In this document: positions 9,217 through 10,266 of the stretch, one piece after another
How the letters are laid out: each line of letters starts with the position of its first letter
How positions within the stretch are numbered: the first letter of the stretch is position 1
NCBI GenBank assembly: GCA_900234795.1
Contig: LT962688.1
Location: 150,001 to 182,000, forward strand
DNA from: Methylorubrum extorquens
Lineage (GTDB): Bacteria; Pseudomonadota; Alphaproteobacteria; Rhizobiales; Beijerinckiaceae
DNA length: 32,000 nt
Direction of reading: 5' to 3'
The notes under the pieces: model-generated
What the model was told of the DNA's origin: nothing
Database searches by the model: none
The model's input: only the letters and a program-made list of their open reading frames with translations
Position numbers and translations under genes: made by a program

Positions 9217-10266
9217 CTAAGCATATCCAACCACAACCTCGCCCCAACCGCACTGCTCACTCAGCAAGCCGGCAAATACCGCATCGAGCCGCATCCGCTC
9301 GGCATCGACCAGTGGGCCATCAACCACGACCGGGCGGCAGCGCGCGTCCCAGGCCGTGGGCACGAAGTCCGGGTTGTGCAGGGCATGGTCGGAGGCTTCC
9401 GTGAAGAAGGAACGGTCGCCGCCGTCGATGTAGCTCTCGGCCGGCAGGTCCTCCGCGAGCAGGATGTCGTGGCTGTCGAGTTCGACGTGCCAGTAGGTGA
9501 CGCTGGCGACCGGCTCGCGGGTGATCGTGGTGCCGTTGATCAAGCACATCACGGGCACGAGCACGCCGCCCTCACCGTTGGCATCGTCGCCGATGAGAAC
9601 CGGATGGCCGTGCGAGAGGCGCAGATCGCGCGCCGGGAGGCGGGGGCCGAAGGCGCCCGCGCGGATCCGGATGGGCTGCTCGTTGTGGGGCAGCGCATCA
9701 CCCTTGGCACCGAGGGTGCGGTTGCCGATCCAGGTGATCGGACGCAGCAGGCCGGAGGCCGTCACGGCGAGATCGCCGACGATCAGATCCTCGACCGCCA
9801 CCTCGCCGCGGGCGGTGCGGATGAGCGTGCCCGTGGTGAAGCAGACGGGCGTGCTGGTTACTGCAATTTGTTGCGAGCGGTAGATAGCATCTTCATTCCG
9901 AGCTGGGAAAACGCTGTTGTCGGCATTCGTGGTAAGCAATTGCACATTTACAAAGGAGGTTGGCGCCTGCCCATTATAATAAAGGTTGACGCTCTGCCTT
10001 GGGCCTTCCAAAGACTGAAAGCGATTTGCGAAGATATCGTACGTAATCACGCCGCTTGAATTTTGCGTCTGGAAGATCGATGGCCCACTTACCCTCTGCC
10101 CATTCACAAAAATATCGCCGGGTATGGCTGTGCCGTTCGCGTACTGCCGGTCATAGTCAACAGTGAAGTTGCCACTTACTTCTGCAAACCGCGGGTAGTT
10201 TGAGCCCTGACTCTGCTGCGCTAAATTCACCGTTCCATTGAACGTGTAATTGTAAACGTTGGCCAC
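9217..10266 (-). CDS. Hint (Hedgehog/intein) domain protein, Hint_2 type, with a novel N-terminal N/Q/S/T/Y-rich domain
   Basis: 349 aa, GTG start at 10266 with GGGGA 7 nt upstream. The Hint_2 signature is CFTTGTLIRTARGEVAVEDLIVGDLAVT...RPITWIG...PIRIRAGAFG...RDLRLSHGHPVLI...YWHVELDSHDILLAEDLPAESY. The catalytic Cys codon is at 9841-9843. Confidence 0.85.
   Translation of the reverse strand: MANVYNYTFNGTVNLAQQSQGSNYPRFAEVSGNFTVDYDRQYANGTAIPGDIFVNGQRVSGPSIFQTQNSSGVITYDIFANRFQSLEGPRQSVNLYYNGQAPTSFVNVQLLTTNADNSVFPARNEDAIYRSQQIAVTSTPVCFTTGTLIRTARGEVAVEDLIVGDLAVTASGLLRPITWIGNRTLGAKGDALPHNEQPIRIRAGAFGPRLPARDLRLSHGHPVLIGDDANGEGGVLVPVMCLINGTTITREPVASVTYWHVELDSHDILLAEDLPAESYIDGGDRSFFTEASDHALHNPDFVPTAWDARCRPVVVDGPLVDAERMRLDAVFAGLLSEQCGWGEVVVGYA

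What the first reader, a model, noticed from the sequence alone, without database searches (positions are those of the whole stretch)
9217..10266. The Hint gene is a compositional chimera, and the breakpoint coincides with the catalytic cysteine
The Hint-domain-encoding part is extremely GC-rich (49/60 G+C in 9601-9660 by my count). The part encoding the 141-aa N-terminal N/Q/S/T/Y-rich domain is much poorer (30/60 in 9961-10020, 34/60 in 10081-10140). The switch occurs within a few tens of nucleotides of the Cys codon (9841-9843), around 9851-9900. This suggests a foreign N-terminal cargo domain was recombined onto a resident, host-like Hint processing module. That domain is exactly the piece that Hint-mediated cleavage would release. 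There is no signal peptide.
Basis: seen in the sequence. Interest (0 to 1): 0.65.

Follow-up and report, generated by a model that had tools for sequence, protein, structure and literature searches.

The report
Swappable cargo on a self-cleaving module
This prophage gene joins a low-GC, exchangeable N-terminal domain to a conserved, host-like self-cleaving Hint module exactly at the catalytic cysteine, and the same junction is reused for cargo swapping across a large family of Methylobacterium genes.

Summary
GC3 is 0.58 in codons 1-141 and 0.86 in codons 142-349, and the best changepoint is 6 codons before Cys142 (Fisher p=8e-9).

It is not a one-off. Of 94 complete family genes from Methylobacterium, Methylorubrum, Jiella and Aurantimonas genomes and prophages, 39 show the same step, aligned on the Hint Cys1 codon. 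All 7 members of this gene's own N-domain family show it.

Comparison with a syntenic sister prophage shows allele replacement. The N-domain has 30% aa identity and saturated synonymous sites. The Hint module (dS 0.33) matches the phage backbone (0.20-0.35).

At a second syntenic locus, five unrelated N-domain families replace one another. Identity jumps from about 0.4 to 0.9 at the Cys codon.

Hint modules cluster by genome, and N-domains are under purifying selection (dN/dS about 0.2).

The gene lies 28 nt downstream of a CI-like repressor in a lambdoid prophage.

The N-domain is a confidently predicted all-beta fold with no structural match. It was found only attached to Hint modules, so no foreign donor was identified.

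Best reading: a Hint_2 (type-B BIL-like) autoprocessing family with polymorphic N-terminal cargo, a mirror image of Rhs/CDI-type polymorphic proteins. Cleavage and cargo function are inferred, not shown.

The parts
9844..10266 (-). N-terminal cargo cassette (aa 1-141): low-GC, all-beta domain of N-family 'Nfam5'
   Evidence: GC3 is 0.58, against 0.86 downstream. AlphaFold2 gives pLDDT 91.2 and pTM 0.83 with 10 strands. DNA identity to syntenic L087 is 41-54% here against 84-97% in the flanks. pS is 0.80, which is saturated.
9841..9843 (-). Cys142 codon: Hint Cys1, the predicted N-S acyl-shift nucleophile and the recurrent recombination junction
   Evidence: Cys is invariant in 94 of 94 family genes. 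The family-wide GC3 step and the identity jumps fall at this codon.
9421..9843 (-). Hint_2 autoprocessing domain (aa 142-282)
   Evidence: Pfam PF13403 matches at E=8.7e-45. GC3 is about 0.86-0.95. D165, S218, H221, H260, E262, D264, D267 and E277 are invariant in 94 of 94.
9604..9615 (-). Block-B-like motif S218-H-G-H221 (T/S-x-x-H)
   Evidence: S218 and H221 are invariant in 94 of 94 family members.
9220..9420 (-). Conserved 67-aa C-terminal tail (aa 283-349) after the Hint domain
   Evidence: It has no Pfam or NCBIfam match. It is conserved across the family (R285, F288, P299, C310, W341) and is predicted to be partly helical at low confidence.
10267..10294 (-). 28-nt AT-rich spacer with a GGGGA ribosome-binding-like site between the repressor stop codon and the GTG start
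   Evidence: Read directly from the sequence. No promoter-like or terminator-like site was found on this strand.
10295..11374 (-). CI-like prophage repressor (HTH + peptidase S24), immediately upstream on the same strand
   Evidence: Pfam HTH_31, HTH_3 and Peptidase_S24 match. PHROG 4 'transcriptional repressor' matches at E=1.7e-23.
8276..9148 (-). DUF3800 gene, immediately downstream on the same strand; separately low-GC (GC3 0.51)
   Evidence: Pfam DUF3800 matches at E=8.5e-10. GC3 is 0.51. It is 96% aa identical in L087 with dS 0.35.

Best explanation
What it is. The gene is a prophage-borne member of a large Methylobacteriaceae/Aurantimonadaceae family. In this family a conserved C-terminal module of about 205 aa (Hint_2 autoprocessing domain plus a 67-aa tail) carries an exchangeable N-terminal cargo domain.

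Shown here:
1. The compositional step is real and sits at Cys1.
2. It recurs across the family.
3. Cargo cassettes are replaced by recombination. The 3' edge of the replaced segment is the Cys1 codon, where family-wide homology begins. The 5' edge varies and lies near the start codon.
4. Hint modules track the genome or backbone, while cargo does not.
5. Cargo domains are under purifying selection and fold confidently.

Inferred mechanism:
- Cys142, assisted by the S218-x-x-H221 motif, performs an N-S acyl shift.
- The resulting thioester is resolved by hydrolysis, or by a nucleophile possibly recruited by the conserved tail.
- This releases the 141-aa beta-domain as the active product.
- The low GC reflects a separately circulating, mobile-element-associated cassette pool that is not ameliorated. 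It is not a functional requirement, because some alleles of one cargo family are fully GC-rich.
- In this window the gene is probably co-transcribed with the CI repressor. That would make it a lysogen-expressed accessory gene.
For: - Step: GC3 is 0.58 vs 0.86, changepoint at codon 136, four-fold sites 0.64 vs 0.89, p=8e-9.
- Family-wide: 39 of 94 genes have a step above 0.2. The aggregate GC3 is 0.51 up to codon -6 and 0.76-0.84 from codon 0. The median changepoint offset is 0. All 7 Nfam5 members have the step.
- Replacement: the WIN vs L087 identity profile. N-domain pS is 0.80, against C-module dS 0.33, DUF3800 0.35, RusA 0.28 and orf6356 0.20.
- Independent replicate: L081 (Nfam5) vs L022 (Nfam8) have flanks at 0.89-1.00 identity, the cassette at 0.29-0.51, and 0.91 from the Cys codon onward. 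L081/L032 and L072/L076 behave the same way.
- One syntenic locus carries five unrelated N-families.
- Hint modules cluster by genome across N-families. Same-genome pairs with different N-families have dS 0.15-0.27, and WIN vs non-syntenic L082 has dS 0.32.
- Purifying selection on cargo: median dN/dS is 0.21.
- Not a functional AT requirement: Nfam0 GC3 ranges from 0.39 to 0.97, and the high-GC3 alleles are at syntenic, same-family loci.
- Mobile association: 9 of 11 viral-contig copies have the step, against 29 of 82 genomic copies, p=0.006.
- Catalytic residues are invariant in 94 of 94.
- Type-B BILs catalyse cleavage uncoupled from splicing (PMC4031507).
- Prophage context and operon-like spacing.
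Against: - No cleavage, expression or localisation data exist for this protein.
- The full-length structure model was poor over the Hint part (pLDDT 30-60).
- No donor for the cargo was found, so the idea of a 'separately circulating pool' rests on composition and incongruence only.
- The 5' recombination edge has no conserved anchor, so the exchange mechanism on that side is unexplained.
- In the window-L087 pair both alleles belong to the same N-family. Very ancient allelic divergence retained by recombination cannot be distinguished from recent import.
- Cargo function is unknown: no fold match, no defence-system match, and no signal peptide or secretion partner identified.
Confidence: 0.72

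Rival explanations
1. Reverse polarity. The whole gene arrived as low-GC foreign DNA, like its DUF3800 neighbour. Its Hint part was later overwritten by gene conversion from resident GC-rich paralogues. On this view the Hint module, not the cargo, is the replaced piece.
For: - Hint modules cluster by genome across unrelated N-families.
- Same-genome paralogue dS is only 0.15-0.27.
- The first 70 Hint codons of WIN, L087 and L082 have dS 0.09-0.13, against 0.45-0.51 for the rest, which indicates recent exchange tracts inside the module.
- In this window the Hint module is flanked by low-GC DNA on both sides.
Against: - Between WIN and L087 the Hint module's overall dS (0.33) equals that of the backbone genes, while the N-domain is saturated. 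In this pair the cargo is therefore the discordant piece.
- In most step-bearing genes the flanks have normal GC, and only the roughly 400-bp cargo is AT-rich.
- Both processes probably operate in the family. This is a contributing process, not an exclusive alternative.
Confidence: 0.3
2. A single, recent fusion specific to this gene, in which one foreign domain was captured onto a resident Hint gene.
For: The sharp GC3 step lies next to Cys142.
Against: - The same architecture and composition occur in all 7 Nfam5 members from several species and prophages, and in 39 of 94 family genes with more than 10 N-families.
- A homologous N-domain also sits on a divergent Hint_2 lineage (P0121).
Confidence: 0.05
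3. In-situ divergence without recombination. The N-domain evolves fast under diversifying selection with AT-biased mutation, which erodes its GC3.
For: - N-domains are hypervariable.
- Low-GC alleles show N-domain dS far above C-module dS.
Against: - Selection cannot saturate synonymous sites (pS 0.80) next to a module with dS 0.33.
- Domains at syntenic loci have no detectable relationship to each other.
- Median dN/dS of 0.21 indicates purifying, not diversifying, selection.
- No template repeat for retroelement-type targeted mutagenesis exists in the window.
Confidence: 0.05
4. Compositional artefact. The low GC merely reflects the N/Q/S/T/Y-rich amino-acid content or a mis-called reading frame.
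For: GC1 and GC2 are also lower in the N part.
Against: - Four-fold degenerate sites differ (0.64 vs 0.89).
- Homologues confirm the frame and the start.
- The structure model is confident.
- Alleles of one N-family range from GC3 0.39 to 0.97.
Confidence: 0.02

Closest known systems
Type-B bacterial intein-like (BIL) domains / Pfam Hint_2 (PF13403)
   Same: - Hint fold family with an N-terminal Cys nucleophile and a block-B T/S-x-x-H motif.
- No intein-like block G and no +1 nucleophile.
- Located at the C-terminal end of variable bacterial proteins.
- Type-B BILs are reported to catalyse cleavage uncoupled from splicing (PMC4031507).
- From memory, the original description (Amitai et al. 2003, Mol Microbiol 47:61) places BILs in hypervariable regions of proteins. 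That paper was not held.
   Different: I found no description of the following features in the held literature:
- the AT-rich composition of the cargo;
- the Cys1-codon recombination junction;
- the prophage repressor-operon location;
- the conserved 67-aa tail.
The only solved relative detectable by sequence is a type-A BIL (2LWY), at E=0.03 over block A.
Hedgehog / Hog proteins (cargo - Hint - adduct/sterol-recognition region)
   Same: The order of parts is the same: an N-terminal cargo released at the Hint Cys1, then a Hint domain of about 140-150 aa, then a tail of about 65 aa. Diverse N-termini on a conserved Hog module are also known in eukaryotes (PMC2362128).
   Different: - There is no sequence similarity in the tail.
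- There is no evidence of adduct transfer.
- The cargo has no signal peptide.
- The setting is a bacterial prophage.
Polymorphic toxins with HINT releasing peptidase; Rhs elements with GC-rich core and AT-rich extension
   Same: - A conserved module plus cassette-exchanged variable domain.
- A compositional break between the conserved and variable parts.
- A junction that coincides with an autoproteolytic site (PMC3482391; PMC7259588).
   Different: - Polarity is inverted: here the variable domain is N-terminal and the Hint module is C-terminal.
- There is no trafficking domain or repeat stalk.
- No orphan cassettes were found.
- No co-varying immunity gene lies inside the swapped segment.
- No toxin domain is recognised.
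Lysogen-expressed accessory genes downstream of cI (lambda rexAB-type position)
   Same: The gene starts 28 nt after a CI-like repressor on the same strand, with no intervening terminator-like site. It is followed by another low-GC accessory gene.
   Different: - There is no homology to rexAB or to any PADLOC defence model.
- Expression was not tested.
- The comparison with lambda rests on textbook knowledge.

Membership tests
Pfam Hint_2 / type-B BIL domain | Significant match to the Hint_2 profile above the curated threshold | tested here: met
   153.1 bits against a cutoff of 28.4, E=8.7e-45, profile positions 1-146 of 147.
Pfam Hint_2 / type-B BIL domain | Cys/Ser nucleophile at domain position 1 | tested here: met
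   Cys142 is invariant in 94 of 94.
Pfam Hint_2 / type-B BIL domain | Block B T/S-x-x-H motif | tested here: met
   S218 and H221 are invariant in 94 of 94.
Pfam Hint_2 / type-B BIL domain | No intein-type block G (terminal His-Asn plus a +1 nucleophile) | tested here: met
   The only His-Asn (H297-N298) lies 15 residues past the domain, is followed by Pro, and is conserved in only 62 and 68 of 94 members.
Pfam Hint_2 / type-B BIL domain | Autocatalytic cleavage at the N-terminal junction | not testable with these tools
   Requires expression of the wild type and C142A with mass spectrometry.
Classical polymorphic toxin system (Rhs/CDI/MafB type) | C-terminal variable toxin domain downstream of the releasing peptidase | tested here: not met
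   The variable domain is N-terminal. The C-terminus is the conserved part.
Classical polymorphic toxin system (Rhs/CDI/MafB type) | Cognate immunity gene that co-varies with the variable domain | tested here: not met
   The swapped segment in WIN vs L087 and in L081 vs L022 contains only the cargo plus no more than about 100 nt of upstream sequence. No neighbour co-varies with the N-family.
Classical polymorphic toxin system (Rhs/CDI/MafB type) | Orphan or displaced cassettes near the main gene | tested here: not met
   There are no N-domain-like matches outside complete genes within +-4-6 kb in 94 loci.
Classical polymorphic toxin system (Rhs/CDI/MafB type) | Cassette exchange by recombination at the conserved/variable junction, with a compositional break | tested here: met
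Hedgehog/Hog-type autoprocessing with adduct transfer | Cargo - Hint - C-terminal recognition region architecture | tested here: met
   141-aa cargo, Hint at aa 142-282, conserved 67-aa tail.
Hedgehog/Hog-type autoprocessing with adduct transfer | Covalent adduct on the released cargo C-terminus; homology of the tail to SRR/ARR | not testable with these tools
   The tail has no family match. Testing needs the intact mass of the released fragment.
Diversity-generating retroelement target | Template repeat and reverse transcriptase near the variable region | tested here: not met
   No second copy of the N-domain sequence exists in the 32-kb window. The variable region is a whole 420-nt domain, and the alleles are unrelated.

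The most novel reading that the evidence does not exclude
The family is a previously unrecognised, inverted-polarity polymorphic effector system. Prophage-borne and chromosomal copies share a Hint-plus-tail 'processing and recombination handle'. They exchange AT-rich N-terminal beta-domain effectors at the Cys1 codon. The released cargo (possibly carrying a C-terminal adduct, as in Hedgehog) would determine a strain-specific phenotype such as superinfection exclusion, kin discrimination or host interaction, without a linked immunity gene.
Probability: 0.25. Interest if true: 0.7.

Novelty: new variant of a known kind. Interest (0 to 1): 0.5.

Why it matters
Hint and BIL domains are known to sit in variable bacterial proteins. 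How that variability is generated, and what the domains do there, is poorly understood.

This locus and its relatives give a clean, quantifiable example. The catalytic junction of an autoprocessing domain doubles as the recombination junction for cargo exchange. The compositional signature marks the cargo as a separately circulating pool, enriched on prophages.

This mirrors the logic of Rhs/CDI polymorphic toxins with the opposite polarity. It also mirrors the Hedgehog cargo-Hint-tail layout in bacteria.

It provides a tractable system for testing two things: whether bacterial Hint_2 modules release or modify diverse cargos, and what prophage-encoded versions do for lysogens. The test material is a small protein, many natural alleles, and sister prophages that differ only in the cargo.

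Tried and rejected
1. Word-indexed homology search with the N-domain alone and with an N-domain profile. Both failed to recover even the known relatives, so they say nothing about absence. The exhaustive phmmer search was used instead.
2. Giant proteins P0122 and P0123, hit in 10 stretches. P0123 is a T/S/N/G/A-rich repeat protein with no Pfam match, so I judged the match compositional.
3. Fold search of the N-domain against PDB and BFVD. There was no hit at E<=1e-3, and the best TM-score was about 0.38, to assorted small beta-barrels.
4. The full-length structure model was unusable over the Hint part.
5. A dedicated DNA-level recombination anchor next to Cys1. Family-wide synonymous conservation is not elevated there. 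No conserved upstream anchor exists either.
6. Orphan cassettes and a co-varying immunity or partner gene. None were found.
7. An intein-like terminal His-Asn at residues 297-298. It is not conserved.
8. Defence-system (PADLOC) and NCBIfam membership. None for the Hint gene.
9. PDB sequence search with the C-module alone found nothing.
10. Public phage records have no DNA match to 8200-11400.
11. A look-up of the window protein's own contig returned 'not on record'. Same-genome paralogues of this exact strain therefore could not be examined.
12. A retroelement (DGR) explanation is rejected for lack of a template repeat.

Full report
**1. Observation**

ORF 9217-10266 on the minus strand encodes 349 aa from a GTG start. 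Homologues start at the same M-A-N position, which confirms the start and the frame. Pfam Hint_2 matches residues 141-282 at E=8.7e-45. The Cys codon is at 9841-9843.

Codons 1-141 have GC1/2/3 = 0.50/0.42/0.58. Codons 142-349 have 0.72/0.48/0.86. The maximum-likelihood GC3 changepoint is codon 136, six codons before Cys142. The difference persists at four-fold degenerate sites (0.64 vs 0.89) and is highly significant (Fisher p=8e-9, permutation p<=0.003).

Only two other ORFs in the window show comparable steps, both in the mosaic early region.

**2. Context**

The window is a lambdoid-type prophage in a Methylorubrum/Methylobacterium genome. Its gene order is:
- integrase (1650-2771), a PAPS-reductase-like gene and an HNH gene;
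- DUF3800 (8276-9148), the Hint gene and a CI-like HTH+S24 repressor (10295-11374), all on the minus strand;
- then Cro, RusA, an antiterminator-like gene, terminase, portal, protease, capsid and tail on the plus strand.

The Hint GTG lies 28 nt after the repressor stop codon, behind a GGGGA motif. No promoter-like or terminator-like site intervenes. The gene therefore occupies the position of lysogen-expressed accessory genes; that it is expressed this way is an inference.

**3. The family**

More than 1,100 relatives were found. Many cover only the Hint module plus tail at 70-87% identity, while full-length relatives reach only 50-67%. The sequences show a conserved C-terminal module of about 205 aa preceded by unrelated N-terminal domains.

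I fetched 80 genomic and 13 viral-contig loci and analysed 94 complete genes:
- 39 have a GC3 step above 0.2 and 40 have a step below 0.1.
- The step is largely confined to short (<=200 aa) N-domains: 37 of 65, against 2 of 29 for long ones.
- All seven members of the window's N-family (Nfam5) show it (N 0.42-0.58, C about 0.88).
- Aligned on Cys1, the step-bearing genes go from GC3 0.51 (up to codon -6) to 0.76-0.84 (codons 0-9). The median changepoint offset is 0.
- In most of them only the roughly 400-bp cargo is AT-rich and the flanks have normal GC.
- Viral-contig copies are enriched for the step (9 of 11 vs 29 of 82, p=0.006).

**4. Evidence for cassette replacement**

L087 is a syntenic sister prophage: DUF3800 is 96% aa identical and the flanking ORFs are 83-94% identical. 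Sliding DNA identity is 84-97% across DUF3800 and the Hint module, 68% in the bin that contains the Cys codon, 41-54% across 9892-10316, and 84-93% in the repressor 3' half.

Nei-Gojobori estimates:

| Region | aa identity | Synonymous divergence |
|---|---|---|
| N-domain | 30% | pS 0.80 (saturated) |
| Hint module | 87% | dS 0.33 |
| DUF3800 | 96% | dS 0.35 |
| RusA | 86% | dS 0.28 |
| orf6356 | 94% | dS 0.20 |

Selection cannot saturate synonymous sites, so the cargo allele was replaced while the Hint module stayed with the backbone.

An independent replicate comes from a locus flanked by a UmuC-like polymerase gene. It is shared by L081, L022, L089, L032, L090 and L091, and it carries five N-families with no detectable profile-profile relationship. 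L081 and L022 are 0.89-1.00 identical in both flanks, 0.29-0.51 from about 80 nt upstream of the start codon to the last bin before Cys1, and 0.91 from the Cys codon onward. L081/L032 and L072/L076 behave the same way.

**5. Hint modules track lineage, cargo does not**

The nearest Hint module is often a same-genome paralogue with an unrelated cargo. Examples are L012/L044 at 92%, L022/L014 at 92% against 51% for the same-cargo relative, L005/L042, L078/L034 and the three MAG_VT26 copies.

Same-genome pairs with different cargo have dS 0.15-0.27. The window's module is as close to non-syntenic L082 (dS 0.32) as to syntenic L087 (0.33). Within that trio, the first 70 codons have dS 0.09-0.13 against 0.45-0.51 for the rest, which indicates recent exchange tracts that end where homology ends.

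Gene conversion among Hint modules is therefore a contributing process. I list it as the main rival or complement.

**6. Nature of the cargo**

Among related alleles the N-domain is under purifying selection (median dN/dS 0.21, against 0.27 for the Hint module). For low-GC alleles, N-domain dS greatly exceeds C-module dS in the same gene pairs.

AlphaFold2 gives a confident all-beta model (pLDDT 91.2, pTM 0.83, 10 strands). It has no significant match in PDB or BFVD.

An exhaustive phmmer search of 1.84 billion representatives found five hits:
- one Hint_2 protein with a divergent Hint module (P0121);
- two short fragments;
- two giant repeat proteins, which I judged compositional.

No donor taxon is identified, so 'foreign' remains unproven.

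One N-family (Nfam0) spans GC3 0.39-0.97. Its GC-rich alleles sit at syntenic loci with same-family partners. AT-richness is therefore not functionally required. This fits non-ameliorated, mobile cassettes alongside ameliorated, vertically inherited ones.

**7. Mechanism**

C142, D165, S218, H221, H260, E262, D264, D267 and E277 are invariant in 94 of 94 family genes. There is no conserved terminal His-Asn. This matches the description of type-B BILs as lacking block G and catalysing cleavage uncoupled from splicing (PMC4031507).

The most likely chemistry is an N-S acyl shift at Cys142, followed by thioester resolution that releases residues 1-141. This is inferred.

The conserved 67-aa tail has no family match. 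Its position parallels the Hedgehog adduct- or sterol-recognition region (PMC2362128). A role in recruiting a nucleophile or in trafficking is speculation.

**8. Comparison with known systems**

The gene meets the sequence-level criteria for Hint_2 / type-B BIL membership.

It works like a polymorphic protein system: cassette exchange at an autoproteolytic junction with a compositional break, as in the Rhs GC-rich core and AT-rich extension (PMC7259588) and in the HINT releasing peptidases of polymorphic toxins (PMC3482391). It fails the membership tests for those systems because:
- its polarity is inverted;
- it has no immunity gene;
- it has no orphan cassettes;
- it has no recognised toxin or trafficking domain.

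It matches no PADLOC defence model. I found no description of the compositional pattern or of the Cys1 recombination junction in the held literature.

**9. Verdict**

However, this is a recurrent family property and not a singular event, and a foreign donor is not demonstrated.

I rate it a new variant of a known kind, of moderate interest.

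Noticed in passing
window 21578-25489 (+): A single 1303-aa ORF (GC3 0.87) matches terminase large subunit over aa 9-711 and portal protein over aa 803-1296. This is either an unusual TerL-portal fusion or a missing stop codon or sequencing issue.
   Followed up: no
window 5186-5935 (-): The HNH-endonuclease ORF shows a GC3 step as strong as the Hint gene's: 0.62 to 0.94 at codon 119, LRT 39.9. The HNH match begins at aa 134. It may be another domain-boundary chimera or an over-extended start.
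   Followed up: no
window 8276-9148 (-): The DUF3800 gene next to the Hint gene is uniformly low-GC (GC3 0.51). It is nonetheless 96% aa identical in sister prophage L087, with backbone-like dS of 0.35. It has only a weak PADLOC DUF3800_VII hit, E=0.006.
   Followed up: partly
window 10295-11374 (-) vs L087: The repressor is mosaic. Its C-terminal S24 half is 98% aa identical but has dS 0.88, higher than the neighbouring genes. The N-terminal DNA-binding half and the Cro region are only about 50% identical in DNA, which is a classic immunity-region swap.
   Followed up: partly
L081 1676-3583 (-) and the syntenic loci L022, L029, L032, L089, L090, L091: A UmuC-like Y-family (error-prone) polymerase gene and a conserved 85-aa ORF lie immediately upstream of the Hint gene. 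This is the locus where five different cargo families replace each other.
   Followed up: partly
proteins P0124 (139 aa), P0125 (105 aa), P0126 (151 aa): These are N-domain-only products. P0124 ends a few residues after the 'VCF' junction. They may be truncated pseudogenes, displaced cassettes, or contig-end artefacts.
   Followed up: no
L058 2491-8419 / L053 (M. rhodesianum); also L003, L037, L077: Family genes occur in tandem arrays: three consecutive copies with N-domains of about 400-500 aa in M. rhodesianum, and pairs elsewhere.
   Followed up: no
window 9634-9843 (-), first 70 codons of the Hint module: Synonymous divergence to L087 and L082 is only 0.09-0.13 here, against 0.45-0.51 in the rest of the module. 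This suggests a recent exchange tract among these three copies that abuts the Cys junction. It is not a family-wide feature.
   Followed up: yes
window 17500-20000: A second stretch of reduced GC (0.57-0.61), between the antiterminator-like gene and the small terminase. It contains ORFs without PHROG matches.
   Followed up: no
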